A program made the position numbers and the translations under genes. From Candidatus Melainabacteria bacterium (GTDB lineage Bacteria > Cyanobacteriota > Vampirovibrionia > 2-02-FULL-35-15): 64,000 nt of DNA. A model generated the notes under the pieces. The model was given only the letters and a program-made list of their open reading frames with translations, was not told the DNA's origin and did no database searches. The first letter of the stretch is position 1. Every line of letters begins with the position of its first letter. This document shows, one piece after another, positions 1,797 through 61,585 of this stretch. The stretch is taken from contig JACQBQ010000001.1 in the NCBI GenBank assembly GCA_016201905.1, positions 3,405 to 67,404 on the forward strand, in the 5' to 3' direction.

Positions 1797-2767
1797 AATA
1801 TTCCGTCATATTAAGCTTATTTTTATTAATTCTTCCTACCTGGTTAACTAATCTTAGTAAGGATAAATTGATAGTATTTGCATCACTGTCTTATTATGGC
1901 TGTGATTTTGATGGAGATAAACTTACTGATCTTTCTCTTTGGGATCCAAAAACAAATACCTTGTACTATCAGTTATCAACTACTAAGCGTTCTTATCAAA
2001 AAAGATTTTTTGAAAGCGATATATCATTTGAACCTGTTTTTGCAGATTATGATGGTGATGGAAAAACTGATTTTGCTTTTTTTCAAAAGGATTCTGGTCA
2101 GTGGGTTGTAAGTTTAACTTCAAATCCTAACAGGCCTCAGAAAACATTTTTAGGATCAATAGGAGATATGCCTGTTCCAACTGACATAAAAGGTACCGGG
2201 AGTTATAAACCAGCAATTTGGAGACCAAATGCAAGTAGCTGGTTAATAACAGAGGTCACAAATGAAGGACAAGAAATACAGCGTAGAGTTTTAGAAGGAC
2301 AATATCAGGATTGTCCTTCCTCAGCAGATTATGATGGTGATGGAATATCTGATCTTTCAGTATGGAGACCTGACGATGGTTACTGGCATATTGTAAAATC
2401 ATCTGCTGACTTTGATTTTGGCAAAAGTGATCATACTAAACACGGGCAAGAATGGGATGTAATAGTGCCAAATGACTATGATGGAGATGGAAAATGTGAT
2501 CTTGTCTTCTGGAGACCAGAAAATCAGGTTTGGTACTTTTTATATTCGGGTACAAATGAACAAAATCAAATAAAATTTGGTTTTAAAGATGACATACCGC
2601 TTTCTGGTGATTTAGATGGTGACGGTATACCTGAACTCATTACCTGGAGTAAGGCAAAGAATTCATGGAATGTCCTGAATTTCAGAAAGCAAGAGTCTTT
2701 TTCATATAAGTGGACAGTTCCGAATGATTGTTTACCAGCCGTTTCAATATTACAGAAGTATGAGTAA
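1793..2767 (+). CDS. Secreted FG-GAP/VCBS-type repeat protein (Ca-binding beta-propeller repeats)
   Basis: Signal-peptide-like N-terminus. DYDGDG(K/I)xD motifs each followed by W/F recur 4-5 times (DYDGDGKTD, DYDGDGISD, DYDGDGKCD, DLDGDGIPE). TTG start overlaps the upstream stop by 4 nt. Confidence 0.6.
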   Translation: MKYSVILSLFLLILPTWLTNLSKDKLIVFASLSYYGCDFDGDKLTDLSLWDPKTNTLYYQLSTTKRSYQKRFFESDISFEPVFADYDGDGKTDFAFFQKDSGQWVVSLTSNPNRPQKTFLGSIGDMPVPTDIKGTGSYKPAIWRPNASSWLITEVTNEGQEIQRRVLEGQYQDCPSSADYDGDGISDLSVWRPDDGYWHIVKSSADFDFGKSDHTKHGQEWDVIVPNDYDGDGKCDLVFWRPENQVWYFLYSGTNEQNQIKFGFKDDIPLSGDLDGDGIPELITWSKAKNSWNVLNFRKQESFSYKWTVPNDCLPAVSILQKYE

Positions 2768-4691
2768 AAGGATTATATTTTTTTTTGCAATAATATGCAC
2801 CTTTTTTTTCTTTGGTTGTTCGAATTCAGATACTCCTTTTGGTTTTTTAAATCACCAGACACAAAATATAAATAACCTAATTGATTTTAATGGTGACAAA
2901 TGCTCTGAACTTGTTTTCTGGAATACTTCATCCATGTCTAAGTCTGATAAGTTTCTTGAGCTTTGTTTTTTTGAAACTTTGAACTTAAAAGAAAACAAAT
3001 ATTCAAAATTAAATCTAGGAGAAGTTGGTGATATTCCTTTTGTTGGATACTTTGATGAAGACTCAGTTGCAGATTATGGACTTTATAGAAGTAGTTCAGA
3101 AGGTTTTGGTAGCTGGATTATACAAAGTGGTGCAAATTCAAATCTAGTTAACATAAAGTTTGGAAAGTCTGGAGATATTCCTGTTCCAAATGATTATGAT
3201 GGAGATGAAAAATATGACATTGCAATTTATCATCCACTAGATAGTAGCTTTGAGGGAATTTTTAGCAGAAACCAGATTCCATTTCACTTCAAGCTTGGCA
3301 TAAATGGTGATATTCCTGTATCAAAGGACTATGACGGTGATGGTAAAGCTGACTTTACGACATACAGACCCAGAAACGGTGTCTGGACAATAAGATCATC
3401 GAGAGATGGAAGTGTTACAGAAAAAGAACTTGGCGGTCCATATTTTTTGCCTATACCTAGTGACTATGATGGTGATGGTAAGGCTGATTTATGTGCATGG
3501 AATAGTTTTAATAATTCATTAAAAGTAATATTAACTTCCTTTAAGGCACCATTATCAGGTGATATTTTAGAAAAGATTCAGAATGAATTAAATGGCAAAG
3601 ACTTTTTTCCTGTTCCTTTAGATTATGATGGTAATGGAGTTAGTGAGCTTGCTTTCTGGAGTAACTCATTAAAAATACTTTTAACATTTGACATAAGAGG
3701 GAATTTAAAACAAAAAACTTATTATTTCCCTAAAGTAACGAATTCGCTCCCCGTTAACAATTTCCTTTTAAGAAAACTAGTCTTAGAAAATATTAGTAGA
3801 ACTTCTGCTGTACTTTTTAAAGATGGTGAGATTATTCGTTATCCGCTTTCCGGGCTTAAAACTAAAAGCTTACACATATTTAAATGGAATAAAAAAGAAA
3901 AAGTTATACCGTTTGCTTCTGATTTTGATGGAGATTATGTTTTAGATTCGTGCTTGTGGTCAGTTAACACTGGAACATTTTTATGTAGTTCAAGTAGAGT
4001 TGGCTGGAAATTTGCTCTACCGCTTGGTCAGAAGATAGATGTGCCAGTAGTTGGCAATTTTAATAGCGATAATATTACTGACATAGGTGTTTATAGAAAT
4101 GCTGAAAGAAGTTTTTATTACCGATTTTTGGGGAAATCAGCACCGAAGGAAATCCAAACTTTTCAGTTAAGTGAAGATGCAGGTGTGTATGGTGTGCCAC
4201 AAATAGCTGATTATGATGGAGACAGAATAGATGACTTTGCGATTTTTAATCCTCAAAACAATATTTTTATAATTAAAAGATCATCTGATTTGCTGGAAGC
4301 GAAGATAAACCTAACTAATACCGGTGAATCTATCCCTGTAGTTGGGGATTTTGATGGTGATGGCAAAGCAGATCCTGCCATTATTAGTACTGACCAGCAC
4401 GATTCTAAATTTACTTATTATTCCAGTACATATGGAAAGTCATTTGATTTTCCTATTAGTGCATTTTATGGACTACCAATTGCTTCTGATATTGATCATG
4501 ACTTAAAATCCGATCTACTGTTTTTTGACAATAATAAAGGAAACTTAGTCATTGCTCTGTCTTCTCAAAATCAGGGAGGTAATAAAGAAAAACTCCTTGA
4601 TTATAAGTTTATAAAAGATGCCAGCCCAGTAAATTGTCCATGGCTATATAATATTATTTATGCAAAAACAAAAAATAAAAATAGTTCTTGA
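2760..4691 (+). CDS. FG-GAP repeat lipoprotein, a larger paralog of the preceding gene
   Basis: The N-terminus MSKRIIFFFAIICTFFFFGCS has a lipobox-like FGC. At least 8 DYDGDGKAD/DFDGDGKAD-type repeats follow. The ORF track opens at 2724; the Met at 2760 is the more likely start. Confidence 0.55.
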   Translation: MSKRIIFFFAIICTFFFFGCSNSDTPFGFLNHQTQNINNLIDFNGDKCSELVFWNTSSMSKSDKFLELCFFETLNLKENKYSKLNLGEVGDIPFVGYFDEDSVADYGLYRSSSEGFGSWIIQSGANSNLVNIKFGKSGDIPVPNDYDGDEKYDIAIYHPLDSSFEGIFSRNQIPFHFKLGINGDIPVSKDYDGDGKADFTTYRPRNGVWTIRSSRDGSVTEKELGGPYFLPIPSDYDGDGKADLCAWNSFNNSLKVILTSFKAPLSGDILEKIQNELNGKDFFPVPLDYDGNGVSELAFWSNSLKILLTFDIRGNLKQKTYYFPKVTNSLPVNNFLLRKLVLENISRTSAVLFKDGEIIRYPLSGLKTKSLHIFKWNKKEKVIPFASDFDGDYVLDSCLWSVNTGTFLCSSSRVGWKFALPLGQKIDVPVVGNFNSDNITDIGVYRNAERSFYYRFLGKSAPKEIQTFQLSEDAGVYGVPQIADYDGDRIDDFAIFNPQNNIFIIKRSSDLLEAKINLTNTGESIPVVGDFDGDGKADPAIISTDQHDSKFTYYSSTYGKSFDFPISAFYGLPIASDIDHDLKSDLLFFDNNKGNLVIALSSQNQGGNKEKLLDYKFIKDASPVNCPWLYNIIYAKTKNKNSS

Positions 4692-12510: not shown

Positions 12511-12524
12511 AATTTTTTTACCTC

Positions 12525-12603
12525 GGAAAAATCTCGCTTTGAAACAAGATTTTTCCTTTTCCTTCCCGGCGCTCAGAATATTGCTTACCGCAACATTCTT
12601 TGC
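12525..12603 (-). promoter_or_regulatory. Conserved two-hairpin element, copy A, ending 14 nt before the start codon of the 68-aa ORF
   Basis: Minus-strand sequence GAATGTTGC-GGTAA-GCAATATTC ... GGAAAAATCT-TGTTTCAAAGCG-AGATTTTTCC, then GAGG and ATG. Confidence 0.5.
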
Positions 12604-12655
12604 TTATCTTATGCTGCTTTTTGAGTTAATCTCCTCCTCAAGCTTTTTTTATTAA

Positions 12656-12971: not shown

Positions 12972-13700
12972 ATGAATAACCTTACACTAGAACTTGCTTA
13001 TCTCTATCCAAAACTTTTGAATATTTATGGAGATCGTGGCAATGTATTAACTTTGCTGTTTAGATGTAAAGCTAGAGGAATTAATTTAAATGTGTCAACA
13101 ATAGGACTTGGGGACAGGCTTGACCATGCAAAATTTGATATTTACTTTATTGGTGGAGGACAGGATCAGCAACAAATCCTGGTTTCAAATGATTTACAGA
13201 CTAAAAAAGAGGGCTTAGTTTCTGCAATAGAAAATAAAACTATTTTCTTAACTGTTTGTGGTGGGTATCAATTGCTTGGTAAGTATTACAAAACGCATGA
13301 TGGAACAGAGCTTAAGGGTATAGAAGCATTGGATCTTTTTACTGTTGCTGGAAGTAAAAGAATGATAGGAAATGTTTTATGCAAAGAGCTTGAGTCCGGT
13401 AAAACTCTTGTTGGCTTTGAAAATCATTCAGGGAAAACTTATTTAGCAAAATCATTAACACCGCTTGCAAAAGTCTTACGTGGTAATGGAAATAATAGTG
13501 AAGACGGTTTTGAAGGCGTAAGATATAAAAATGTTTTTGGAACTTACTTACATGGCTCGTTGTTACCAAAAAATTCACATCTTGCAGATAAAATCATTAG
13601 ACTTGCTTTGGAAAAAAAAGGATTACAAATGCCGGATTTGAAAGTAGACGATACGTTTGAGATGCTAGCTCATAAAAAAGCTGAACAGCTCAGCTACTAG
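12972..13700 (+). CDS. gatD: Lipid II isoglutaminyl synthase glutaminase subunit GatD (CobB/CobQ-like type-1 glutamine amidotransferase)
   Basis: Near-identical blocks to GatD as recalled from memory: TVCGGYQLLGKYYKTHDGTELKGIEALD, VGFENHSGKTY, YKNVFGTYLHGSLLPKN. No murT is adjacent. Confidence 0.75.
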   Translation: MNNLTLELAYLYPKLLNIYGDRGNVLTLLFRCKARGINLNVSTIGLGDRLDHAKFDIYFIGGGQDQQQILVSNDLQTKKEGLVSAIENKTIFLTVCGGYQLLGKYYKTHDGTELKGIEALDLFTVAGSKRMIGNVLCKELESGKTLVGFENHSGKTYLAKSLTPLAKVLRGNGNNSEDGFEGVRYKNVFGTYLHGSLLPKNSHLADKIIRLALEKKGLQMPDLKVDDTFEMLAHKKAEQLSY

Positions 13701-13703
13701 ACA

Positions 13704-13799
13704 TGTCATTGCGAGCCCGACTCAGGCGGGCGAAGCAATCCCAAATGTTTTCATATTACAATCTGGACTGCTTCATTGCTTATGCTCCTTGCAGTGACA
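13704..13799. repeat. GC-rich palindromic mini-element, copy 1 (termini TGTCATTGCGAGC...GCAGTGACA), in the convergent intergenic region gatD / M16 peptidase
   Basis: About 60% GC in a ~30% GC background. Shares the CGAAGCAATC module and terminal inverted repeats with the other copies. Confidence 0.7.
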
Positions 13800-13801
13800 A
13801 A

Positions 13802-15076
13802 CTACCCCAGGCTAAACTTTTTAGGCATTTCATTTCTTGGTCCAACTGCTGTAAGTGTGTAATATTTAGAATTAAATATTACATTTGCTAGTTTAATAAT
13901 TCTTTCATTGGTAATTAATTGTACCGAACTATTTATTTCATCTGGTGTTAAAAATCTCTTGTAGTATAAGTCATATAATGCATTTCTCGATGCTCTAACC
14001 ATTGTTGATTCGAGTTCAAGAAATAAGCTGGTTTTTAGTTGCATCTTTGCTCTTTCAAGTTCATCAGGCTTTAGCCCATCTTTTTTAACTGCATTTAACT
14101 CTTTTAAAATAAGCTCTATAACATGGCTTGATTCTTTGGCAGTAGTTCCTGCATAAACCCCAAATAGTCCACCTAATTTATTCGTGTGATAGTAAGAAGA
14201 AATTACATAAGCAAGGCCTCGCTTTTCCCTCACTTCTTGAAAGAGCCTTGAACTCATGCCTCCACCCATTGCAATGTCAATTACAGCCAGCGTATATCTT
14301 TCTTCATCGTAGACTGAAACACCTTTTGTAGCAAAGCTCAGATGGGTTTGTTCAATATCTTTGTCTTTAATGAATATATCTGGAGTTATTATTAATGGCG
14401 GTGCATCTTTCTTTTTGTTTTTGTTATTTATGTTAGAAGTGAGTTTTTCGGTTTTTTGTATAATTGCAGCCAGGTCATATTTACCAGCCAGTGAAATTAT
14501 CATATTATCAGGGGTGTAAAGATCACTTAAAAAATTGAATACTGATTTTTTCTTAAGGTTTGTAATTGATTCTATAGTTCCGGTAATTGGTTTTCCAAGA
14601 GGATGTCCTTTCCATACAACTTCATATAAGAGATCCTGAACAAGATCTTCAGGAGTATCTTCATACATTTTAATTTCTTCTAGGATTACTTGTTTTTCAA
14701 GGTCAAAATCGTTGTCCTGCATTCTTGAATTAAATAACATATCTAAGAAAAGCTCCAGTGCAACTAAAACATGTTCACTTAAGATCCGCGTATGGTAACA
14801 GGTATGTTCTCTGTCAGTAAATGCATTCAGGTTAGCTCCAACATTTTCACTTTGTTCGGCAATCTCTAAAGCAGTTCTTGTTTTTGTACCCTTAAAAATT
14901 ATATGTTCAATAAAGTGTGAAACGCCATTATTACTTACTTCTTCATCAATCGATCCTACGTTAATCCATATACTCAATGTGCATGATAATGCACCTGGAA
15001 TTTCTTCTGAAATTATTCTTAAGCCATTTTCTAAAGTTATTATTTTAGGTGGCTTGTAATTTGCTGAAGTTAACAT
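13802..15076 (-). CDS. M16 family (insulinase/pitrilysin-like) zinc peptidase
   Basis: Inverted zinc motif HFIEHIIFKGT (HxxEH), followed by NAFTDREHTCYH and a C-terminal inactive M16 domain. Confidence 0.85.
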   Translation of the reverse strand: MLTSANYKPPKIITLENGLRIISEEIPGALSCTLSIWINVGSIDEEVSNNGVSHFIEHIIFKGTKTRTALEIAEQSENVGANLNAFTDREHTCYHTRILSEHVLVALELFLDMLFNSRMQDNDFDLEKQVILEEIKMYEDTPEDLVQDLLYEVVWKGHPLGKPITGTIESITNLKKKSVFNFLSDLYTPDNMIISLAGKYDLAAIIQKTEKLTSNINNKNKKKDAPPLIITPDIFIKDKDIEQTHLSFATKGVSVYDEERYTLAVIDIAMGGGMSSRLFQEVREKRGLAYVISSYYHTNKLGGLFGVYAGTTAKESSHVIELILKELNAVKKDGLKPDELERAKMQLKTSLFLELESTMVRASRNALYDLYYKRFLTPDEINSSVQLITNERIIKLANVIFNSKYYTLTAVGPRNEMPKKFSLG

Positions 15077-23954: not shown

Positions 23955-24036
23955 CTGAGCGAAGAATATTGCGGTGAGCAATATTCTAAGCGTCGGGAAG
24001 GAAAAGGAAAAATCTTGTTCAAAGCGAGATTTTTCC
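23955..24036 (+). promoter_or_regulatory. Conserved two-hairpin element, copy B, in the 5' region of the Na+/Ca2+ exchanger gene
   Basis: GAATATTGC-GGTGA-GCAATATTC ... GGAAAAATCT-TGTTCAAAGCG-AGATTTTTCC; about 90% identical to copy A over 75 nt. One stem position is A-U in one copy and G.U in the other. Confidence 0.5.
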
Positions 24037-24047
24037 GCTTAAAAAAC

Positions 24048-39555: not shown

Positions 39556-40641
39556 TTAGTTCTCAGCAACTCTAAGAGCAATAGTTTTTTGTTCGATTTT
39601 CTTTTTAATTTTTGGCAGCATGTTTATTGCTTCTTCTTCGCCTACTTTAATTGCTTTTGCAAGACTTACTTTATCAAGGTTTAATATGCCCACTTCTTTT
39701 AAGTCCGGGCTTATAACAATATCTGCTTTATCCAGAGCTGCCTCTGACTGTGCCCTTAATCCAAGACCAATAACACGGATAATAATGCCTTCAAAAGATC
39801 TAAAGTTTTCTGATTTTATTTCTTCAAGCTTTCTATCGACATCCACAGCAATAACAATATCTGCTCCCATTTTTTTTGCCTCATCAACAGGAATATTTTT
39901 TAAAATCCCGCCATCGACAAGTAGCTGGTTGTTAATCGGAATTGGCTGACGCAGTGTAGGTATTGAAGTGCTTGCCTGAACTGCAAGGCCAACATCCCCG
40001 GATTTTATTACCACTGGCAAGCCACTAATTAAATCAACTGCAATAATGTGTAATGGAATACTTATGTTAATTGTTCCATCTTTTTTTGAAATCAGTTGGT
40101 TTACAAAATGATGTAATCTATGGTCATTATATAAGCCAGCATAAAAAGGTTTTCCTACAATAGTCCGAAATCCTCTATTTAGATAGAGGAAAAATGCTCT
40201 AAAGATAGAAAAATCTGTTTTATATACTTTTGTTATTGCACCTGTTAAAACCTGCTCTTCAATTTCATCTGGACTTAGTCCTCCTGAATATAGTGCTGCA
40301 ATTAAAGCTCCAGCACTAGTACCGACAAGGTAATCAACAGGAATATTTTCTCTTTCAAGAACTCTTAAAACACCAATTTGTGCAGCACCACGTGCGCCAC
40401 CACCGCCCAACGCTAATCCAATCTTTGGTCTTATTACAGAACTATTTTTTGCAAGGGCAGATGAGGTAGTAAAAATGAGTAGAAAGCAAAGAAAAAGAGA
40501 AAAGTTCTTTACGTCATTGCGAGGAGTGAAAAGACGTTGCATGCAACGTCTCCACGGCAATCTCCCAAACGTTAATGAGATTGCTTCGTCGTCCGCCTGG
40601 GCGGACTCCTCGCAATGACGTGTCACATTTTTTTTCTTCAC
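39556..40641 (-). CDS. Patatin-like phospholipase
   Basis: GGGARGAAQIG, GTSAGAL (catalytic Ser) and VDGGILKN (catalytic Asp). The first ~35 codons, including both candidate start ATGs at 40641 and 40542, come from a GC-rich repeat element. Confidence 0.8.
   Translation of the reverse strand: MKKKNVTRHCEESAQADDEAISLTFGRLPWRRCMQRLFTPRNDVKNFSLFLCFLLIFTTSSALAKNSSVIRPKIGLALGGGGARGAAQIGVLRVLERENIPVDYLVGTSAGALIAALYSGGLSPDEIEEQVLTGAITKVYKTDFSIFRAFFLYLNRGFRTIVGKPFYAGLYNDHRLHHFVNQLISKKDGTINISIPLHIIAVDLISGLPVVIKSGDVGLAVQASTSIPTLRQPIPINNQLLVDGGILKNIPVDEAKKMGADIVIAVDVDRKLEEIKSENFRSFEGIIIRVIGLGLRAQSEAALDKADIVISPDLKEVGILNLDKVSLAKAIKVGEEEAINMLPKIKKKIEQKTIALRVAEN
40513..40619. repeat. GC-rich palindromic mini-element, copy 2 (GTCATTGCGAGGAG...CTCCTCGCAATGAC), forming the 5' coding end of the patatin gene
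   Basis: Perfect 14-nt terminal inverted repeats. Internal palindromes GACGTTGCATGCAACGTC and GTCCGCCTGGGCGGAC. Confidence 0.8.
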
Positions 40642-48129: not shown

Positions 48130-50280
48130 CTACATAGTTGCACTAGCAACCAATTCACTAATATCTTTTACAGTTGGTGGTTCCCCGCTTTTATCAAGTG
48201 TTCTTGCAGTTTCAAGCATAATAGTACAGAAAGGACATGCGCTTGCAGCTGTCTTTGCACCTGATTCTTTAATTTCATTTAACCTCATAACGTTAATTTG
48301 TTTTCCAGGTGCTTCATACCAGAGCTGTGCTCCACCACCACCACAGCATGTCCCTTTTTCACGAGAGTTTTCCATTTCAATATATTTTAAGCCGGGGATT
48401 TTATTTAAAATGTTTCTTGGAGCATCATATTGACCATTATGACGACCAAGATAACAAGAATCGTGATAAGTTATTTCTTCACTGATTTCCTTTGTCATTG
48501 AGAGCTTTCCTTCTTTTATTAATTCCCATAAGATTTCAGTATGATGAAATACGCTGACATCTTTTAAGCCAAAGTCTGGATATTCATTTTTAAATGTATT
48601 AAAACAGTGGGGACAATGAGTAATAATTTTTTTAACATTTTTGCCTTTAAATATTTCAATATTTTCAATTGCCAGTTCCTGAAAAAGCCCTTCATCGCCA
48701 GCTCTGCGAGCTGTATCACCTGTGCATTTTTCTTTTTTGCCTAAAATTGCAAACTTTACATTTGCTTTTTTAAGTAAACTTACCATTGTCTTTGCAATAT
48801 TTTGATTTCTTGAATCATAAGCTCCAGCACAACCAACCCAGTATAAATATTCAAAGTCACTGGTAGTTTCAATGTTTGGAACATTCAGACCTTCTGTCCA
48901 TTTTTCACGATCTTCTGGTGGCTGCCCCCATGGATTTGAACGTGAACGAATATTTTTTAGGGTATTAAGCAGATTATTTGGTGCTTTATTTTCTGAAATT
49001 AATGACCTTCTTAAATCAATGATTTTTGTTAATTGATCAATTCCAACAGGGCAGGTCTCTACACAAGCTCGACAGGAAGTGCATGACCATAGGGTTTCAG
49101 GAGTAAGTAGATCAGATAAAGTTAGCGTTGTAGTGTCATTGCGAGCCGAAGGCAAAGCAATCTCGCTAACTGTTTCACGTTGTTGAGATTGCTTCGCTCG
49201 CCTCGTCGGAGACGAGTCGGAGCGGGTCGCTGCACTCCTCGCAATGACGCTATTCGGTTTCTCTTCCTGCTTTCCACCTTTAAACCCATGATTGAGAATA
49301 GGTTCCTTATTCATGATTTGCTTCAAATCTAAAATTATCCATTTAGGTGAAAGTGGTTTTTCTGAATTTGTTGCAGGACATACTTCATGACATTTTCCAC
49401 AGGCTGTACATGTGTCCAGATCCATTAAATCTTTCCATGTAAAATCTTCTATCTTTGAAACTGTTTGTGCAAAATCATCTGGTGGATTTTCCATTGCCAT
49501 GATCTCTACTAAGTTAAACGGTGTACTTAAAGCCCCTTTTGGTTTTAAGTCGCTAAAAAATATATTTATTGGTGCTATAAACATATGACTAAACTTTGTA
49601 AATGGAATTAGAGCAATAAATGAAAATGTTTGTATTGAATGAAGCCACCATAAAATGAGATGTAGTGTCTTTTGTGTTTCATAAGAAAATCCTTGAACGC
49701 TATTTGCTATAAGTGCTCCAAGAAATGCATAAGGTTCAATCTGATCTGTTGCTGATTGTCTTAAACCTTCGATTAAAAATCCAAGAACTACAAATAATGC
49801 CAAGTAGACTAATTGAAACCAATCGTTCTGAAAATTATCTAGTCTTTTTGGTTTTACAACATACCTAATAAATGCAAAAAATCCAAGACCAACGAGCATT
49901 AACACGCCAGATAAGTCCATTAAAAAAGAATAGGACTTGTAAAACATGCCATGAAAAAAATATTCAGGCATGCGATCCTGAACTGTAAGTATGTCAGTCC
50001 CTATCCACAAAACAAAAAATCCATAAAAAACTAATATATGTGCAAGGATTGGAAGCTTATCCTTTCCCCAGCCTTTATATAAAAAACTTCTTACAAACAT
50101 GTTTTGAATGCGCTTGCTGAAGTCAGTAAGGTTATTTTTTGGTTTGCCTCTTGCCCAGCTTTTAATTTTTAAATAAAACCCAGAGATAAAAAATATTGCT
50201 GAAATAAAAAATAAAGAATAGAAAATTTCTTTGTAATGAGGCACATCGTGAATATTCCACCATAGACCGCGTGTTTCCAT
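48130..50280 (-). CDS. HdrDE/DsrMK-like membrane-bound Fe-S oxidoreductase: N-terminal NarI-like di-heme b membrane domain fused to two [4Fe-4S] ferredoxin motifs and two CCG cysteine-rich domains
   Basis: 5-6 TM helices with paired His (ILAHILVFYGFF, HLILWWLHSIQT). CTACGKCHEVCP and CTSCRACVETCP motifs. CCG-type clusters (CCGGGG, CPFC, HCPHC). Carries an in-frame 114-nt repeat insertion. Confidence 0.7.
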   Translation of the reverse strand: METRGLWWNIHDVPHYKEIFYSLFFISAIFFISGFYLKIKSWARGKPKNNLTDFSKRIQNMFVRSFLYKGWGKDKLPILAHILVFYGFFVLWIGTDILTVQDRMPEYFFHGMFYKSYSFLMDLSGVLMLVGLGFFAFIRYVVKPKRLDNFQNDWFQLVYLALFVVLGFLIEGLRQSATDQIEPYAFLGALIANSVQGFSYETQKTLHLILWWLHSIQTFSFIALIPFTKFSHMFIAPINIFFSDLKPKGALSTPFNLVEIMAMENPPDDFAQTVSKIEDFTWKDLMDLDTCTACGKCHEVCPATNSEKPLSPKWIILDLKQIMNKEPILNHGFKGGKQEEKPNSVIARSAATRSDSSPTRRAKQSQQRETVSEIALPSARNDTTTLTLSDLLTPETLWSCTSCRACVETCPVGIDQLTKIIDLRRSLISENKAPNNLLNTLKNIRSRSNPWGQPPEDREKWTEGLNVPNIETTSDFEYLYWVGCAGAYDSRNQNIAKTMVSLLKKANVKFAILGKKEKCTGDTARRAGDEGLFQELAIENIEIFKGKNVKKIITHCPHCFNTFKNEYPDFGLKDVSVFHHTEILWELIKEGKLSMTKEISEEITYHDSCYLGRHNGQYDAPRNILNKIPGLKYIEMENSREKGTCCGGGGAQLWYEAPGKQINVMRLNEIKESGAKTAASACPFCTIMLETARTLDKSGEPPTVKDISELVASATM
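49135..49248. repeat. GC-rich palindromic mini-element, copy 3, inserted in-frame (114 nt = 38 codons) in the HdrDE-like gene
   Basis: Termini GTCATTGCGAGC...CCTCGCAATGAC. Internal CTCGTCGGAGACGAG and GCAAAGCAATCTC/GAGATTGCTTCGC. Confidence 0.8.
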
Positions 50281-56240: not shown

Positions 56241-56660
56241 TTACTGATTCTTGTCATTAAAAAATATTTTACTAGCATACACTAAAGCAATACCAACTGC
56301 CAGATAGATTATCCCTAAAATTGGTCTATCAATAGGACTACGCCTTAAAATCCCACCCATCCCCATCATAAGACCAATTAGAACAAATCCTCTTACACCT
56401 AGTATTTTTATCCAGCCTATTAGTATGTCATTTTTATTAAACTGGATAACATCAGCTCTCTTATAATATTTTAAAGCAATTTTCTGAAGTATAAATCTTC
56501 CTTTTAGCAGGCCCACAGTTACACTTGATGTAATAAAAATAATTAGTTTTATACCAAAGCTTAGTTTTAATAACCAGCTTATCCCGGCAATCGATAATCC
56601 TAAACCTACAAGTAGCCAAATTATTCCAACAATTACCAGACTGGCTTTTTTAGTATTCAT
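56241..56660 (-). CDS. Small polytopic membrane protein (139 aa)
   Basis: 4 TM helices. Preceded by the conserved hairpin element. Confidence 0.5.
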   Translation of the reverse strand: MNTKKASLVIVGIIWLLVGLGLSIAGISWLLKLSFGIKLIIFITSSVTVGLLKGRFILQKIALKYYKRADVIQFNKNDILIGWIKILGVRGFVLIGLMMGMGGILRRSPIDRPILGIIYLAVGIALVYASKIFFNDKNQ

Positions 56661-56667
56661 TTTTTGT

Positions 56668-56700
56668 CAAAAAAATCCTGCTTTGAACAAGATTTTTTCT
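56668..56700 (-). promoter_or_regulatory. Third, partial copy (second hairpin only) ending 8 nt before the start codon of the 139-aa membrane protein
   Basis: Minus strand AGAAAAAATCTTG-TTCAAAG-CAGGATTTTTTT. The loop TTGTTCAAAGC is conserved; the stem is kept by a U.G pair. Confidence 0.4.
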
Positions 56701-57109
56701 TTTCCCTTTACTTATTTTTTTTGTCTACTAACATTAATTTATTATCACGTAAAATATTCATAACAACAAGTAAAATGTTAAAAGATAAAGTTGATGAGAT
56801 AATTTGCTAACAATTGTTGTCGGTATATGTCTTTTTTTTAGAAGATATTTACCTCTTAATCAACTTCCGGCTCCCTTCAAAACGGTACGTAATAAGGTTT
56901 ATAAACCATTCTGAATATAAAATTTTTTTAATCTTTAGCCTTATTATGTGACTTAAGAGCTATTTTCTTATTAATTCTCTCGAAGATTAAATTTTTCTTA
57001 TTTGATTTACTTGTTTAAAGTCTTTTAAATTACCTCTAAAAAAGCTATTATTGTGTCATAAGTAATTTTTACTTATTAAAGATAAAGTTAAGAACAGTTA
57101 AAGGAAAGA

Positions 57110-57423: not shown

Positions 57424-57574
57424 TGTCATTGCCCGGCTCCGCCTCGTCGGAGACGAGGCGAGCGAGGAGCGAAGCGACGAAGCAATCCCGATCGCAATTA
57501 AATCAAGACTTAACTAATAACCATTTTCATAATATTCTTAGTCTGGGACTGCTTTGCCTTTAGCTCGCAGTGAC
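57424..57574. repeat. Composite ~150-nt copy of the GC-rich element (TGTCATTGCCCGG...AGCTCGCAGTGACA) in the convergent region between the 102-aa ORF and pilC
   Basis: Termini match copy 1. It shares CCTCGTCGGAGACGAGG with copy 3 and GAAGCAATCCC with copy 1. The AT-rich middle suggests a two-module arrangement. Confidence 0.6.
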
Positions 57575-57579
57575 AATAA

Positions 57580-58923
57580 TTACTTAATCTGTGATATCAC
57601 AGTAAATATCGGCAAATACATTCCTATAACTATTGCACCGACAAGACCACCAAGTGTAACTATCATAAAAGGCTCCATAAGTGAAGTTAATCCTTCCACT
57701 GCTGTTGCTACTTCTATATCATAAAAGTCAGCTACTTTTTCGAGCATATTTTCAAGCTGACCGGTTTCTTCACCGATGGCTATCATCTGAGTAACCATTT
57801 GGGGAAACAATTTGCTTTCAGACATTGGTCCGCTTATTGTTCCGCCTTCCTGGACCTTTGCCTGAACAGCTTCTACTGCTCTTGCTAAAACTGCATTTCC
57901 AGCAGAATCTTTTACTACTTCAAGTGCAGTTATTATTGGAACTCCGCTTTTAGTAAGTGTTCCAAATGTTCTTGTAAATCTTGCTACAGCAACTTTCCTT
58001 AAAATATCTCCGAGCACTGGCAACTTGAGCATTGTAAAGTCAAGGGTAAACTTACCTTCTTTTGTCTGGTACCAATTTTTTAAAGCCCAAACTGTTCCTA
58101 CTATAATTCCAATCACAGCAAGCATATACCACGATCTTAAAAACTCACTGATTCTAATCAAAAGTCTTGTGTAAGCAGGCAGTTCACTTCCAAGCGAATT
58201 AAATAATCCTGAAAAAGTTGGAAGTACGAGAGTTAACATTGCATAGAAGACACCAACTGCAATAAACATAACAACTACAGGGTATGTCATTGCTGCTTTG
58301 ACTTGCTGTGTAAGGCGGCTGCGCTCTTCCATAAACATTGCTAAACGATTTAAGACTTGATCTAGAACACCGCCTGCTTCTCCAGCTTTAACCATTGAAA
58401 TATACAGGCGATCAAAAATTTTTGGATGTTTGTCAAGTGCATCAGAAAGAGTGCTTCCTTGTTCAATATCGTATCTAACTTGACTCAATGCTTTTTTTAG
58501 TCTTGGGTTTTGAGTTTGCTCAGTCATGACGTTAAGTGCTCTGAGCATTGCAACGCCGGCTTCTACCATTGAAGCAAACTGTCTTGAAAAAATAACCATA
58601 TCTTTTAAAGATATAGGCTGATACTTTGTTAAAAAATCTTCCAGGAAAGGCTTAGCTTTTTTTATTGCAGTTGCACTAGCTGGCTCTTCTATCTCAGTTC
58701 TTGGATCTGAACTTTCAGCTCTTTGTGTTGTAAAAGGCATTGCAGAACCAAAATCTCCCACATCAACTTCTTTTGATTCAGCTGCATCAATTTGTTTTAG
58801 GTCAAGTACCCAAAGTCCTTCTTGCTTTAGTGAAGCTTTTGCTTGATCCGGTGTATCAGCTAAAATGGATGATTCTTTTAGTTCTCCTTTATTGTTTCTT
58901 GCTTTGTATGTAAATGTAGGCAT
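57580..58923 (-). CDS. pilC: Type II secretion / type IV pilus inner-membrane platform protein (GspF/PilC family)
   Basis: Two T2SSF repeats with 3 TM helices and family-wide similarity. No pilB/pilT is adjacent. Confidence 0.85.
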   Translation of the reverse strand: MPTFTYKARNNKGELKESSILADTPDQAKASLKQEGLWVLDLKQIDAAESKEVDVGDFGSAMPFTTQRAESSDPRTEIEEPASATAIKKAKPFLEDFLTKYQPISLKDMVIFSRQFASMVEAGVAMLRALNVMTEQTQNPRLKKALSQVRYDIEQGSTLSDALDKHPKIFDRLYISMVKAGEAGGVLDQVLNRLAMFMEERSRLTQQVKAAMTYPVVVMFIAVGVFYAMLTLVLPTFSGLFNSLGSELPAYTRLLIRISEFLRSWYMLAVIGIIVGTVWALKNWYQTKEGKFTLDFTMLKLPVLGDILRKVAVARFTRTFGTLTKSGVPIITALEVVKDSAGNAVLARAVEAVQAKVQEGGTISGPMSESKLFPQMVTQMIAIGEETGQLENMLEKVADFYDIEVATAVEGLTSLMEPFMIVTLGGLVGAIVIGMYLPIFTVISQIK

Positions 58924-59065: not shown

Positions 59066-61585
59066 ATGAAATACAAATGGCTCATAAGAGAATCAAAAGA
59101 AATTACAAAGGATTTTCTTCATACTGCTTTTGATTCAAGAGTTATTGCCAAGTTACTTTTAAATAGAGGAATTGATTCACCTGAAAAAGCAAAATCTTAT
59201 TTAGAGCCAAAGTTTTATAAAGAATCCAGACCAGAAGAAATCCAGGATCTGATAAAAGCAAAAGATCGAATCATTGAAGCAATAAATAAAAAAGAAAAAA
59301 TTACTATTTTTGGAGATTATGATGTAGATGGTGTTACTTCTACAGCTTGTTTACTAATTGCCCTTAGACAATTTACCGATAACATTGACTTTTATATTCC
59401 AAATAGGCTTACTGAAGGCTATGGATTAAATAATGAAGCAGTTAAAATTATAGCTAAAAAAAATAAAAAGGCTTGCCATGGCAAGCCTTTACTGATTACC
59501 TGTGACTGTGGAATAACAAACCATAAAGAAGTCAAGCTTGCAGGTGAGCTTGGTATGGATGTAATAGTCACTGATCACCATTCTTTACCTGAAGTTTTGC
59601 CCGATGCTTATGCAGTCTTAAATCCAAAACTTTTGCCAGGTGATCATAAACTACACTTTTTGCCCGGAGTAGGCGTTGCTTATAAACTTGCTAAGGCAAT
59701 TTTAGAGGAAAGAAAAGGAGAAGTTTGCAAAGAAGATCTTCTTGATCTTGTAGCACTTGGAATGATTGCTGACCTTGCACCGCTTGTAGATGAAAACAGG
59801 TATTTAGTTCAGATTGGTCTTGAAAAATTAGCAAGAACTGAAAAGATTGGTTTAAGAGAACTGCTTAGGATGTGTGGCTTTACTCCACAGGATAAAAATA
59901 GTCCTACGACAGAACATGTTGGCTTTGGAATTGCACCAAGGATAAATGCTGTAGGCAGGCTTACAGATGCAGCTCTGGCTGTAAGGCTTTTAACTACCTG
60001 TGATTTATTTGAAGCTGTTCAAATAGCTGGTGAACTTGAAAGTCAAAACAGACAGAGACAGTCACTCTGTGAAAGCACATTAAATGAAGCTGTTACGCTT
60101 GTATCTGAGCAGGTAGATTTTAAAAATGATAAATGCATTGTGCTGGCTAAAGATAGCTGGCATCATGGAGTAATTGGGATTGTAGCTTCAAGAGTAGTTG
60201 AAAAATTTAGTTTACCTACTGTTTTAATCGCCATTGATAAAGAACAAAACATAGCGCGAGGTTCAGGGCGCAGCATTGAGAAGTTAAATATTGTAGATGC
60301 TTTAACTAAAAGCTCTAAACATCTTGAGAAATATGGCGGTCATAAAGCTGCATGCGGACTAAGTGTAAAACCTGAGTTTGTTAATGATTTTATTTTTGAT
60401 TTTAAAGACAATGTAAATAAAATGCTTGACAATCAGAATTTAGAACCTGTTTTAAAGATTGATATGGAATTACCGCTTTCAGCTTTAGTTATGGATTTAA
60501 TGAATAAAGTAAATAAATTATCGCCTTTTGGTTTAGGAAATCCTATGTCAATTTTTACAAGCGATGAAATTGAAATAATTGGCATTAAAAATATTGGTAA
60601 AAACGGCCAGCATTTGAAGCTGACCTTAAGAACTTTGGATAGTGTCATTGCGAGGAGCAAAGAGACGTTGCATGCAACGTCTCCACAGCAATCTCAACAA
60701 CATGAAGAAGTGATCGAGATTGCTTCGCCTTTGGCTCGGAATGATGTGAAGCAGTTTGAAGCTCTAATCTGGAATCATAATGTTAATTTGCGATTTAATT
60801 TAGGAGATCAAATAAAAATCGCCTACACGCCAAAGTTAAATAATTACAATGGTGAGACATTTATACAGCTGGAAGTAAAAGACTGGCAGATCTTAAATGA
60901 TAAGAGTTTAGAAAATAAGAAAATTAAAAAAGAAGAAAAAGAAATTGAAATTTATGATTTTAGAGACAAAACACAAGAATTGTTAAGTATTCTTTCCTCA
61001 AGGCTTGATTCTGTAACCTGTTTTGCTGAGATTGAGCAAAAAAATCATTTAGATCTAAAAACCTTTTCAAGAAACAAAATTAAAAAAGCTGAAAGCCTTG
61101 TTTTTTTGGAAATCCCTCCTGACGAGTTTGTCTTTTTAGATATAATAAAACGCTCATGTGCTAAAAAGATTTACTTTGCATTTACCCAGCATCAAAATAA
61201 CTTAGAACCCCAGAATTTATTAAAAAGACTCATTGGTATGCTTAAATATGCAGTAAGCAATAAAAACTCAATCATAAACGAAACGGAGCTCCAGTCAGCT
61301 TTAGGTATAAATAGAACATCACTGGCTTATGCACTGGAAATACTTGTAAAGATAGGACTCTTATCGTATGAAAAGACAAACGGTGAATTAAATATCAATC
61401 TTTTAACTCCTGCTCGACAGAATTTCCTAGAGTTAATAGAATATAACCTGCTGGTTTCAGAGTTAAAACAAATTTTAGATTTTAAGAACTGGCTTTGTGA
61501 ATCTGATATTCTGCAAATAGAAAAGATGTTGAATGAACACAATATTTTGGCAAAGTTTATTTCTTATGAATCAATAAAGGTATAG
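59066..61585 (+). CDS. recJ: Single-stranded-DNA-specific exonuclease RecJ with a ~280-aa C-terminal extension
   Basis: DHH motifs (GDYDVDGVTS, TDHHS), the DHHA1 domain, and an OB-fold region carrying an in-frame GC-rich repeat insertion. Confidence 0.85.
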   Translation: MKYKWLIRESKEITKDFLHTAFDSRVIAKLLLNRGIDSPEKAKSYLEPKFYKESRPEEIQDLIKAKDRIIEAINKKEKITIFGDYDVDGVTSTACLLIALRQFTDNIDFYIPNRLTEGYGLNNEAVKIIAKKNKKACHGKPLLITCDCGITNHKEVKLAGELGMDVIVTDHHSLPEVLPDAYAVLNPKLLPGDHKLHFLPGVGVAYKLAKAILEERKGEVCKEDLLDLVALGMIADLAPLVDENRYLVQIGLEKLARTEKIGLRELLRMCGFTPQDKNSPTTEHVGFGIAPRINAVGRLTDAALAVRLLTTCDLFEAVQIAGELESQNRQRQSLCESTLNEAVTLVSEQVDFKNDKCIVLAKDSWHHGVIGIVASRVVEKFSLPTVLIAIDKEQNIARGSGRSIEKLNIVDALTKSSKHLEKYGGHKAACGLSVKPEFVNDFIFDFKDNVNKMLDNQNLEPVLKIDMELPLSALVMDLMNKVNKLSPFGLGNPMSIFTSDEIEIIGIKNIGKNGQHLKLTLRTLDSVIARSKETLHATSPQQSQQHEEVIEIASPLARNDVKQFEALIWNHNVNLRFNLGDQIKIAYTPKLNNYNGETFIQLEVKDWQILNDKSLENKKIKKEEKEIEIYDFRDKTQELLSILSSRLDSVTCFAEIEQKNHLDLKTFSRNKIKKAESLVFLEIPPDEFVFLDIIKRSCAKKIYFAFTQHQNNLEPQNLLKRLIGMLKYAVSNKNSIINETELQSALGINRTSLAYALEILVKIGLLSYEKTNGELNINLLTPARQNFLELIEYNLLVSELKQILDFKNWLCESDILQIEKMLNEHNILAKFISYESIKV
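60644..60746. repeat. GC-rich palindromic mini-element, copy 6 (near-identical 5' half to copy 2), inserted in-frame in recJ
   Basis: GTCATTGCGAGGAGCAAAGAGACGTTGCATGCAACGTCTCCAC...GAGATTGCTTCG...CTCGGAATGATG. Confidence 0.75.

What the first reader, a model, noticed from the sequence alone, without database searches (positions are those of the whole stretch)
60644..60746. The same element inserted in-frame in recJ, read in the same frame and orientation
RecJ stays open through the copy and gains ...DSVIARSKETLHATSPQQSQQHEEVIEIASPLARNDVK.... The insert begins VIARS and ends ARND, exactly as the HdrDE insert does (VIARS...PSARND). The patatin N-terminus also ends with ...PRND. Recurrent use of one coding frame in both directions suggests the element is selected, or was born, to be translation-compatible.
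Basis: seen in the sequence. Interest (0 to 1): 0.65.

Follow-up and report, generated by a model that had tools for sequence, protein, structure and literature searches.

The report
Palindromic repeat inserted in-frame in recJ
A 102-base selfish palindromic repeat of the known "CGTC-tagged" kind sits in-frame in a floppy surface loop of the DNA-repair gene recJ of a Melainabacteria-like bacterium. This is a new example of a phenomenon already described in Rickettsia and other bacteria.

Summary
Window 60644-60745 is a 102-nt palindromic element that adds 34 residues (VIARS...ARND, aa 527-560) to RecJ. Its closest ortholog has a clean gap there.

- **Other copies:** four more lie in the window. 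One is in-frame in the HdrD-like gene, in the same frame and orientation.
- **Location in RecJ:** the insert sits between two OB-fold strands, is the lowest-confidence stretch of an otherwise confident model, and leaves the catalytic motifs intact.
- **What it is:** the ends are YGTCATTGCGAG...CTCGCAATGACR with no target-site duplication and no autonomous copy found. These ends occur in more than 120 genomes of many phyla. It fits the CGTC-tagged REP/RPE-like palindromes of Di Nocera et al. 2013, which are known to sit in-frame in DNA repair genes. Its sequence matches none of their four families, judged from the intragenic peptides they list.
- **Frame claim, partly supported:** palindromic ends plus a TGA in one frame leave two usable frames. 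Across all copies found, wherever they lie, those two are equally often open. Coding copies mostly use the more hydrophilic ...RND frame (15 of 17 counted), which fits selection after insertion rather than design.
- **New here:** RecJ orthologs of this clade carry such inserts at two loop hot spots.

Ordinary in kind, moderately interesting in detail.

The parts
60643..60746 (+). CGTC-type palindromic element (REP-dimer/RPE-like) inserted in-frame in recJ. Core 60644-60745 is 102 nt and encodes RecJ residues 527-560. T60643 and G60746 are the outer tag bases (TGTC...GATG).
   Evidence: Orthologs have a gap exactly here.
60644..60658 (+). Left terminus GTCATTGCGAGGAGC. It pairs with the right terminus.
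60662..60683 (+). Side hairpin GAGACGTTGCATGCAACGTCTC, a perfect palindrome. The same module is in copy 40513-40619.
   Evidence: D7: 86% over 63 nt.
60687..60724 (+). Inner stem AGCAATCTC / GAGATTGCT around a 20-nt variable loop.
   Evidence: The inner stem is conserved across phyla.
60735..60745 (+). Right terminus CTCGGAATGAT. It has two substitutions from the consensus CTCGCAATGAC, which weaken the outer stem.
59066..61585 (+). Host gene recJ (839 aa). The DHH, DHHA1 and RecJ_OB domains and the catalytic motifs are intact.
49135..49248 (-). Second in-frame copy (114 nt) in the HdrD-like Fe-S protein gene (ORF 48130-50280 -). It lies between the two CxxCxxCxxxCP motifs and reads VIARS...SARND.
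40513..40619 (-). Copy (107 nt) overlapping the 5' end of the patatin-like ORF 39556-40641(-). It reads HCEE...PRND if translated from the upstream GTG.
13705..13798 (.). Intergenic copy (94 nt) between ORFs 12972-13700(+) and 13802-15076(-).
57425..57574 (.). Intergenic copy (150 nt) just 3' of pilC (57580-58923 -). It is closed in all six frames and shares a side hairpin with the Hdr copy.
   Evidence: (I11, I15).

Best explanation
The feature is one copy of a non-autonomous palindromic repeat with the hallmarks of the CGTC-tagged REP superfamily, the group that includes Rickettsia RPE-4/RPE-6 and Neisseria dRS3.

**Anatomy.** It consists of two inverted halves, YGTCATTGCGAG...AAGCAATCYC and its complement, around a variable loop, with optional small side hairpins.

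**What it does to RecJ.** It landed, or was inherited, at a codon boundary in a length-variable loop between two beta-strands of the RecJ OB-fold domain. Because it is 102 nt long and stop-free in that frame, the gene stays open. RecJ most likely carries a 34-residue, hydrophilic, disordered loop with no required function.

**Why this frame recurs.** The VIAR...ARND reading follows from three things:
- palindromic termini;
- a TGA that closes one of the three frames;
- purifying selection that keeps only insertions whose peptide a surface loop can tolerate. The ...RND frame is the hydrophilic one.

**How it moves (inferred, not shown).** Mobilisation is probably through single-stranded DNA hairpins, by a trans-acting HUH/Y1-type or other enzyme.
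For: - **Repeat family:** five copies in 64 kb share termini and fold.
- **Termini and flanks:** in 153 copies from many phyla, the base before the element is C or T in 93% and the base after it is G or A in 97%, which gives the CGTC/TGTC tag. There is no target-site duplication for k=2-5.
- **No autonomous version:** none found among 127 loci.
- **Breadth:** exact termini occur in more than 120 genomes, including Alpha- and Gammaproteobacteria, Bacteroidota, Patescibacteria, Planctomycetota, Chloroflexota, Margulisiibacteriota and Caenarcanales.
- **Literature (PMC3733652):** CGTC REPs carry this tag, have stems starting with AT, are mostly inverted dimers, have no dedicated transposase, and include in-frame intragenic copies that often lie in replication and repair genes (uvrA/B/C, recB, dnaE2, polA, UvrD). 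Listed dimer peptides such as VIAGLDPAIH...DARVKPGHD use the same VI...xD frame.
- **Insertion, not ancestral sequence:** gap in orthologs and a clean empty site in L125.
- **Tolerated loop:** AlphaFold2 mean pLDDT is 88.2. The insert accounts for the segments below 50 (residues 532-551 and 553-559), between strands 516-523 and 563-568. Pfam RecJ_OB is split at profile position 60. The DHH motifs are invariant.
- **Frame statistics and hydropathy:**
- **Same element elsewhere:** in-frame in UvrA of an unrelated gammaproteobacterial MAG, reading SVIASKAKQS...APRND (L030).
Against: - The half-unit forms only about 5 Watson-Crick pairs on its own (ATTGC/GCAAT), not the 8-9 bp stem with a 4-5 nt loop that defines published CGTC units.
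- The encoded peptides match none listed for CGTC-1 to -4. The figure with the published consensus sequences could not be read.
- Translation through the insert is inferred from the open frame only.
- Element consensus is retained inside a coding loop in lineages whose RecJ proteins are only about 57-66% identical, with an identical junction. A purely neutral passenger does not predict this.
- The mobilising enzyme is unknown.
Confidence: 0.8

Rival explanations
1. The insert has been exapted. The peptide, or the hairpin in the DNA or mRNA, has a function in RecJ that selection maintains, for example modulating ssDNA binding by the OB fold, or controlling recJ expression or mRNA stability. That would explain why RecJ keeps such elements at the same loops across a clade.
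For: - The junction AGT|GTCATT...AATGAC|GTR-AAR is identical in four RecJ lineages of about 57-66% protein identity.
- A second hot-spot loop in the DHH domain is occupied in at least 10 orthologs.
- In seven related loci (about 118 kb), every complete two-ended copy lies inside recJ.
- The element consensus is well kept in the window copy.
- The literature notes that intragenic copies often lie in repair genes.
Against: - Most orthologs lack the insert or carry decayed or deleted remnants, for example P0026 VIARGD, P0031 ASRNN, and P0005/P0007/P0014 at site 1.
- Interior sequences differ greatly between lineages (60-62% identity).
- The same OB loop holds unrelated insertions in P0002 and P0018, so it is simply permissive.
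- The insert is predicted to be disordered.
- The related loci were chosen because of their RecJ inserts, which biases the enrichment.
Confidence: 0.1
2. It is a classical MITE: a deletion derivative of a DDE-transposase insertion sequence, mobilised through its terminal inverted repeats with a target-site duplication.
For: It has perfect or near-perfect 11-17 nt terminal inverted repeats, is small, is present in many copies, and encodes nothing of its own.
Against: - There is no direct duplication of 2-5 nt at the flanks in 153 copies; counts are at chance.
- No longer version with an ORF between the termini was found.
- The termini are conserved across many phyla, unlike IS-specific inverted repeats.
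- The CGTC tag and internal dyad structure match REP-like elements.
Confidence: 0.05
3. The sequence is removed before or after translation, as an intron-like or intein-like intervening sequence or by hairpin-directed RNA processing. Mature RecJ would then lack the peptide, and the frame would be irrelevant.
For: It has a strong hairpin potential in the transcript.
Against: - No Rfam family, including the intron families in Rfam, matches anywhere in the window.
- None of the three Pfam matches on RecJ (DHH, DHHA1, RecJ_OB) is an intein or other self-splicing protein domain; no dedicated intein-motif search was run.
- All coding copies are kept open and in-frame, including through compensating indels: 99 against 86 nt, plus 2 nt at the junction, in L124 against L127. 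That is expected only if the copies are translated.
Confidence: 0.03

Closest known systems
CGTC-tagged REP superfamily (Di Nocera, De Gregorio & Rocco 2013, BMC Genomics 14:522; PMC3733652), closest to family CGTC-3
   Same: - Terminal CGTC/TGTC tag, with the stem starting with AT directly after it.
- An ...AATCC(A) tail in proteobacterial copies.
- Inverted dimers around a variable spacer, sometimes with small stem-loops in the spacer.
- No target duplication and no dedicated transposase.
- In-frame intragenic copies encoding 20-40 residues, many of them in DNA replication and repair genes.
- CGTC-3 units (GTCATTGCCGGG...CCCGGCAATCCA, peptide VIAGLDPAIH...VKPGHD) share GTCATTGC...GCAATC and the same reading frame.
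   Different: - The stem sequence is ATTGCGAG(G)...GAAGCAAT.
- A single half forms only about 5 Watson-Crick pairs, and most pairing is between the two halves.
- The tail is CTC, not CCA, in the window copies.
- Its peptides (VIARS/HCEE/SLRG ... ARND/LAMT) are absent from the paper's list of intragenic copies.
- The hosts here are Melainabacteria, Patescibacteria and others. The paper reported CGTC repeats only in Proteobacteria, Chlorobi, Bacteroidetes, Spirochaetes and Thermotogae.
Rickettsia palindromic elements (RPE; Ogata et al. 2000 Science 290:347; Ogata et al. 2002), as summarised in PMC10969869
   Same: Palindromic repeats of about 100-150 bp inserted in-frame in unrelated housekeeping genes. 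[quoted passage not shown]
   Different: The sequence family and the host phylum differ. RPE-1 is longer. RPE-4 and RPE-6 are the CGTC-4 and CGTC-1 families, with different stems.
REPIN/RAYT systems (Bertels & Rainey 2011; GTAG-tagged REP doublets)
   Same: An inverted doublet that forms a long hairpin, about 100 nt long, non-autonomous, with no target duplication. Copies can persist at orthologous positions, as with the copy 3' of pilC that is shared with L126.
   Different: REPINs carry a GTAG tag, are usually species-specific, and are linked to a flanking single-copy RAYT gene. Here the tag is CGTC, the sequence is shared across phyla, and no RAYT association is known or was seen.

Membership tests
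CGTC-tagged REP superfamily | Unpaired terminal tetranucleotide CGTC (variants TGTC, CCTC) at the outer end | tested here: met
   the base before GTCATT is C in 99 and T in 43 of 153 copies, and the mirror base after AATGAC is G in 111 and A in 37. The window RecJ copy has TGTC on the left. On the right its degenerated terminus gives CATC in place of the consensus CGTC. The Hdr copy has CGTC and TGTC.
CGTC-tagged REP superfamily | The stem begins with complementary A and T residues directly after the tag | tested here: met
   The sequence reads CGTC-ATTGC...GCAAT in every copy.
CGTC-tagged REP superfamily | Each unit is a short stem-loop with an 8-9 bp stem and a 4-5 nt loop | tested here: not met
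   A half-unit (ATTGCGAGGAGCGAAGCGACGAAGCAAT) has only 5 Watson-Crick pairs of its own. The predicted folds pair the two halves with each other instead.
CGTC-tagged REP superfamily | Short unpaired tail, consensus CCA, at the inner end of the unit | tested here: inconclusive
   Proteobacterial copies read ...GCAATCCAG. Window copies read ...GCAATCTC or ...GCAATCCC.
CGTC-tagged REP superfamily | Mostly organised as inverted dimers with a variable spacer | tested here: met
   All 153 + 24 copies analysed are inverted pairs 70-150 nt apart with variable centres. The search pattern itself required both ends, so this is partly by construction.
CGTC-tagged REP superfamily | No flanking dedicated transposase and no target-site duplication | tested here: met
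   One search shows duplications at chance level. One search found no coding version between the termini in 127 loci. Whole genomes were not searched.
CGTC-1 to CGTC-4 families as published | Sequence identity with one of the four consensus units | tested here: not met
   The peptides of all listed intragenic CGTC copies (VIPAKAGI, SFPRKRES, CHSRESGNP, VIAGLDPAIH, VIPWLDHGI and others) differ from ours. Searches for VIAR, VIAS, ARND, LAMT and HCE in the supplements gave 0 hits. The consensus figure itself is not held, so this is an indirect test.
Rickettsia palindromic elements (RPE) | Palindromic repeat inserted in-frame in protein-coding genes, adding a peptide that the fold tolerates | tested here: met
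Rickettsia palindromic elements (RPE) | Sequence homology to an RPE-1 to RPE-10 consensus | not tested
   No RPE consensus sequences were available. RPE-4 and RPE-6 equal CGTC-4 and CGTC-1, whose peptides differ from ours.
REPIN/RAYT | GTAG tag and an associated single-copy RAYT (Y1 transposase) gene flanked by the repeats | tested here: not met
   The tag is CGTC, not GTAG. No gene bounded by the repeats was found. The window ORFs were not individually screened for a Y1_Tnp domain.
Classical MITE (DDE IS derivative) | Terminal inverted repeats plus a target-site duplication of fixed length | tested here: not met
   Inverted repeats are present, but direct duplications of 2-5 nt occur at chance frequency (9 against 9.6 expected; 3 against 2.4; 0; 0).

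The most novel reading that the evidence does not exclude
These CGTC-type hairpin elements may not be random passengers in RecJ. They may be repeatedly targeted to, renewed at, or selectively retained in two specific loops of the 5'-3' ssDNA exonuclease.

That would point to a functional link between elements that move or persist as single-stranded hairpins and a nuclease that degrades single-stranded DNA. Two forms of the link are conceivable:
- copy-to-copy conversion that refreshes old insertions at a fixed site;
- modulation of RecJ that favours element survival.

The evidence not excluded:
- identical junctions in four divergent lineages;
- an interior that resembles same-genome copies more than same-site copies in other genomes;
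- near-exclusive location in recJ in related loci;
- the same element in UvrA of another phylum.
Probability: 0.1. Interest if true: 0.7.

Novelty: new member of a known kind. Interest (0 to 1): 0.38.

Why it matters
**What it adds**
- It extends the "selfish palindromes inside protein-coding genes" phenomenon to Melainabacteria, the non-photosynthetic relatives of cyanobacteria. That phenomenon is known from Rickettsia RPEs and CGTC/GTAG REPs.
- The sequence family involved has termini conserved across many bacterial phyla, and its mobilising enzyme is still unknown.

**Practical points**
- Annotators should expect such inserts to create spurious N-termini and small ORFs (SLRG..., HCEE..., ...LAMT, ...ARND peptides).
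- Length variation in RecJ, UvrA or Hdr-like proteins can be caused by these repeats.

**Possible follow-up.** The two RecJ hot-spot loops, with fresh, decayed and deleted copies in different lineages, offer a natural series for studying how proteins absorb and lose such insertions. They could also be used to test whether CGTC elements have target preference or undergo copy-to-copy conversion.

Tried and rejected
- **Rfam** at gathering thresholds over the whole window: no family matched.
- **Full-text search for the terminal sequences:** only unrelated primer hits.
- **Full-text search for the encoded peptides:** nothing relevant.
- **Search for an autonomous element** (termini 250-4000 nt apart enclosing an ORF) in 127 loci plus the window: one chance pair in a high-GC contig, no transposase.
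- **Target-site duplication of 2-5 nt:** at chance.
- **"One specially open frame":** rejected by frame counts over all copies found, wherever they lie.
- **RNA fold of the region with flanks:** not significant (z=-1.48). Folding the exact element as DNA is significant.
- **DNA for P0012,** a possible decayed remnant: could not be fetched.
- **Single ancient insertion or repeated insertion in the RecJ OB loop:** attempted and left unresolved. The NJ tree scatters the inserts, the junctions are identical, and the interiors are genome-specific.
- **Not done:** Pfam screening of all window ORFs for a Y1 transposase, and homolog searches for the patatin N-terminus.
Full report

Yes. Window 60644-60745 reads GTCATTGCGAGGAGCAAAGAGACGTTGCATGCAACGTCTCCACAGCAATCTCAACAACATGAAGAAGTGATCGAGATTGCTTCGCCTTTGGCTCGGAATGAT. 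It is 102 nt and lies inside the 839-aa ORF 59066-61585(+).

That ORF is RecJ. Pfam finds DHH (E=3.6e-26), DHHA1 and RecJ_OB, and the solved RecJ chain 8y30 matches at E=7.9e-98 over residues 2-524. The ORF reads ...LDS-VIARSKETLHATSPQQSQQHEEVIEIASPLARND-VKQFEAL..., so the insert is residues 527-560.

The HdrD-like ORF 48130-50280(-) has a NarI-like N-terminus, two Fer4 motifs and two CCG domains. It reads SVIARSAATRSDSSPTRRAKQSQQRETVSEIALPSARND through a 114-nt copy at 49135-49248.

The right half of the RecJ copy is 86% complementary to the plus-strand left half of the Hdr copy (I2). Relative to their genes, the two copies therefore have the same orientation as well as the same frame.

The patatin ORF (39556-40641, -) runs through a 107-nt copy. 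It starts in another frame (HCEE) and ends in ...PRND.

The 15-nt terminus occurs 6 times in the window against 0.48 expected. Five copies exist:

| Copy | Window coordinates | Context |
|---|---|---|
| c1 | 13705-13798 | intergenic |
| c2 | 40513-40619 | 5' end of the patatin ORF |
| c3 | 49135-49248 | in-frame in the HdrD-like gene |
| c4 | 57425-57574 | intergenic, 3' of pilC |
| c5 | 60644-60745 | in-frame in recJ |

**2. Is it an insertion?**

Yes. The best RecJ relatives are uncultured Melainabacteria at 57-70% identity, and the window has 33.8% GC.

In an alignment of 44 orthologs, most have only a 2-6 residue loop where the window has 34 extra residues. The nearest ortholog (P0001, locus L125) reads ...AAA GAG AAA GAA ATA GGA AAG ATG TTT GAA... 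with no trace of the element.

The Hdr ortholog in L123 is 78% identical and lacks exactly the 44-residue segment containing the element.

**3. Where is it in the protein?**

Pfam RecJ_OB is split after profile position 60 of 107.

An AlphaFold2 model built on a 61-sequence alignment has mean pLDDT 88.2. The only long low-confidence stretches are residues 532-551 and 553-559, which are the insert, and 613-623. The insert is flanked by confident OB-fold strands at 516-523 and 563-568.

The DHH-family motifs (D84/D86/D88, D147, D170-H171-H172, D236, G424-G425-H426) are invariant columns. The enzyme therefore looks intact, with an extra floppy surface loop.

**4. What is the element?**

*Architecture.* As single-stranded DNA, all five copies fold the same way (z = -2.7 to -7.6):
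- an outer stem formed by the termini;
- an inner stem, AAGCAATCYC with GRGATTGCTT;
- a variable apical loop;
- optional small side hairpins.

The side hairpins are shared between particular copies. GAGACGTTGCATGCAACGTCTC is in the RecJ and patatin copies, and CGCCTCGTCGGAGACGAGGCG is in the Hdr and pilC-proximal copies (D7, I11).

The hits include Bradyrhizobium and other Alphaproteobacteria, Rickettsiales, Legionellales and Coxiellaceae, Bacteroidota, Patescibacteria, Planctomycetota, Chloroflexota, Desulfobacterota, Clostridia, Margulisiibacteriota and Caenarcanales.

*Flanks.* Across 153 copies, the base before the element is C or T in 93% and the base after it is G or A in 97%. The true terminus is therefore YGTCATTGCGAG, that is, a CGTC/TGTC tag. 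Direct target duplications of 2-5 nt occur only at chance frequency.

*Autonomy.* No longer, coding version was found, and Rfam has no matching family.

**5. Comparison with what is known**

Di Nocera, De Gregorio and Rocco (2013, PMC3733652) defined GTAG- and CGTC-tagged palindromic repeats. According to that paper, CGTC elements:
- end in CGTC, TGTC or CCTC;
- have stems that begin with A and T;
- end in a CCA tail;
- are mostly inverted dimers with variable spacers that may contain small stem-loops;
- have no dedicated transposase;
- include Rickettsia RPE-4 and RPE-6 and Neisseria dRS3.

Its Additional file 3 lists peptides such as VIAGLDPAIH...DARVKPGHD (CGTC-3), VIPAKAGI...IPAFAGMT and SFPRKRES...DSRFRGND (CGTC-1). 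These use the same VI.../...xD and .../...MT frames as here.

The element in the window meets these criteria: tag, AT start of the stem, dimer organisation, no duplication and no transposase. It departs from the published families in three ways:
- its half-unit forms only about 5 Watson-Crick pairs on its own;
- its tail is CTC in this genome;
- its peptides occur nowhere in that list.

CGTC-3 (GTCATTGCC...GGCAATCCA) is the closest family. I therefore file it as a new member, possibly a fifth family, of a known kind.

In-frame palindromes in housekeeping genes are the classic Rickettsia RPE phenomenon of Ogata et al. 2000 and 2002, as summarised in PMC10969869.

**6. The frame question**

*What the geometry allows.* Because the termini are inverted repeats, either orientation begins GTC ATT GCG AG. 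(VIAR/VIAS) and, if the length is divisible by 3, ends GCT CGC AAT GAC (ARND). The frame that reads TCG CAA TGA is always closed. The remaining frame reads SLRG...LAMT.

*All copies found, intergenic and coding together.* There is no preference for the VIAR frame.

| Sample | Result |
|---|---|
| 52 copies with length = 0 mod 3 (104 orientations) | frame 0 open 68, frame 1 open 64 |
| 42 copies in low-GC hosts | frames 0/1/2 open 21/29/25 times |
| 24 low-GC metagenome copies | ...RND end frame open 25, ...LAMT end frame open 20 |
| 71 low-GC copies, all frames | 129 of 426 open, against 105 +/- 7.5 for interior dinucleotide shuffles |

The excess over the shuffles is modest, and it partly reflects the coding copies in the sample and the stop-free conserved stems. 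In the window, the two intergenic copies are closed in the VIAR...ARND frame, and copy 57425-57574 is closed in all six frames.

*Coding copies.* These are biased.
- All 11 in-frame copies in RecJ orthologs read in the ...RND end frame (the P0025 copy has lost its last bases). Eight start VIA and three start HCE.
- The Hdr copy, a UvrA copy in a gammaproteobacterial MAG (L030) and two copies in a glycosyltransferase (L224) also end ...RND.
- HemC in L233 (VIAR...LLAMT) and an ORF in L038 use the other frame.

That gives about 15 copies ending ...RND against 2 ending ...LAMT. These copies are not all independent.

*Why the bias.* Peptides of the ...RND frame are far more hydrophilic (mean Kyte-Doolittle -0.74 against 0.01, p=4e-72). 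The simplest reading is selection after insertion for peptides that a surface loop tolerates, combined with common descent. It does not need an element designed for translation.

**7. RecJ is a repeated host**

*OB-loop site.* The window, L121 (P0016), L122 (P0025) and L123 (P0026) share the junction AGT|GTCATT...AATGAC|GTR AAR.
- P0026 keeps only GTAATTGCGAGG-GGTGAC (VIARGD), which is an internal deletion.
- P0025 has lost the 3' end.
- P0003 has the element in another phase.
- P0031 (ASRNN) and P0012 (ICND) look like remnants.

P0002 and P0018 carry unrelated insertions in the same loop, so the loop is simply permissive.

*DHH-domain site.* A second site lies between AYKLAEAILE and DLLDLV.
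- The same element is present in P0002, P0003, P0009, P0010, P0020, P0036 and P0043.
- CGTC-1-like inserts (CHSRLDRES...LHGND) are present in P0012, P0025 and P0026.
- Decayed traces are present in P0005, P0007, P0014 and P0015.
- The sister copies in L124 and L127 differ by 13 nt inside the element plus 2 nt at the junction. The total of 15 nt preserves the frame and switches the start from VIAR to HCEE.

*History.* An NJ tree scatters the occupied sites among insert-free sisters.

The window's RecJ copy is closer to same-genome copies than to the same-site copies in L121 and L122:
- overall, 70-72% against 60-62%;
- its left half is 86% identical to the patatin copy, and its right half matches the Hdr copy at 86%.

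Old insertion with repeated loss and copy-to-copy conversion, and repeated insertion at a preferred site, both remain possible. I could not separate them.

In seven related loci (about 118 kb), every complete two-ended copy lies in recJ. Those loci were chosen through RecJ, so this is biased.

**8. Mechanism, with status**

- **Shown:** it is a repeat family, it is an insertion relative to orthologs, it is in-frame and stop-free, it is placed in a predicted disordered loop, it has no target duplication, it carries a CGTC tag, and it has a broad distribution.
- **Inferred:**
  - the insert is translated;
  - the peptide is functionally neutral;
  - mobility is through single-stranded hairpin intermediates by a trans-acting HUH/Y1-like or other enzyme, following the REP/RAYT and IS200/IS605 precedents;
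  - selection on hydropathy explains the frame bias.

**9. Verdict**

This is a new member of the known CGTC-REP/RPE-like class, sitting in a DNA-repair gene as that class is already known to do. Interest is moderate. The two RecJ hot spots and the cross-phylum conservation of an orphan mobile palindrome are the parts worth following up.

Noticed in passing
window 40513-40619 (minus strand), patatin ORF 39556-40641: Inside the element's side hairpin, the minus strand reads GGAG, then 7 nt, then ATG (GTGGAGACGTTGCATG). Starting there gives MQRLFTPRNDVKNFSLFLCFLLIFTTSSALA, a typical signal peptide. The element may therefore supply the ribosome-binding site, the start codon and the charged N-region of the patatin-like protein, rather than the longer GTG-initiated reading.
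   Followed up: partly
window 57425-57574 and L126:1-29: The copy immediately 3' of pilC in the window has a counterpart at the same position, just after the pilC stop, in the relative that encodes P0018. This suggests either long persistence at orthologous intergenic sites or repeated use of that site.
   Followed up: partly
window 49194-49226 / 57433-57465, and 40531-40552 / 60662-60683: Small GC-rich side hairpins are shared between particular copies. CGCCTCGTCGGAGACGAGGCG is in the Hdr and pilC-proximal copies, and GAGACGTTGCATGCAACGTCTC is in the patatin and RecJ copies. They behave like exchangeable modules, through nested insertion or recombination between copies.
   Followed up: partly
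window 12515-12604, 23958-24046, 56660-56705: A second, unrelated repeat family is present (GGAAAAGGAAAAATCTTGTTCAAAGCGAGATTTTTCC...). It has three copies, two of them in inverted orientation at 92% over 62 nt.
   Followed up: no
window 1793-4691: Reiterated coding repeats with a DYDGDGK.D motif, spaced about 135 nt apart, occur in two or three large ORFs. They look like FG-GAP/VCBS-type calcium-binding repeats. One chance-level match falls in recJ (GDYDVDG, which is the DHH motif I region).
   Followed up: no
L127:11660-11770 (RecJ ortholog P0002, OB loop): The same RecJ loop holds a different palindromic, low-complexity insert in P0002 (AGAGATCAGAGATCAGAGATCAG...TCTCTCACCTCTCATCTCTCACCTCTC) and a polypyrimidine tract in P0018 (L126). 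The loop accepts several kinds of insertion.
   Followed up: partly
L124:2439-2537, L127:10683-10768 and RecJ orthologs P0009, P0010, P0020, P0036, P0043, P0012, P0025, P0026: There is a second insertion hot spot in the RecJ DHH domain, after AYKLAEAILE. It is occupied by the same element or by CGTC-1-like elements (CHSRLDRES...LHGND), and it shows decayed remnants in other orthologs. The window's RecJ is empty at this site.
   Followed up: yes
L030:2835-2921 (uncultured gammaproteobacterium): The same element sits in-frame in UvrA (SVIASKAKQSHSTGSANNGIATSPLAPRND). A different CGTC-like sequence (CHSEQSEESL...FRMTD) lies at the 5' end of that ORF. This echoes the published observation that intragenic copies often lie in repair genes.
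   Followed up: partly
L047:2729-2790 and L001:3830-3870: Tandem or nested partial left termini occur (GTCATTGCGAGCTTTCTCGTCATTGCGAATTTCGCGTCATTGCGACACGCCGTCATTGCGAGG). This hints that the elements insert into, or abort next to, each other's ends.
   Followed up: no
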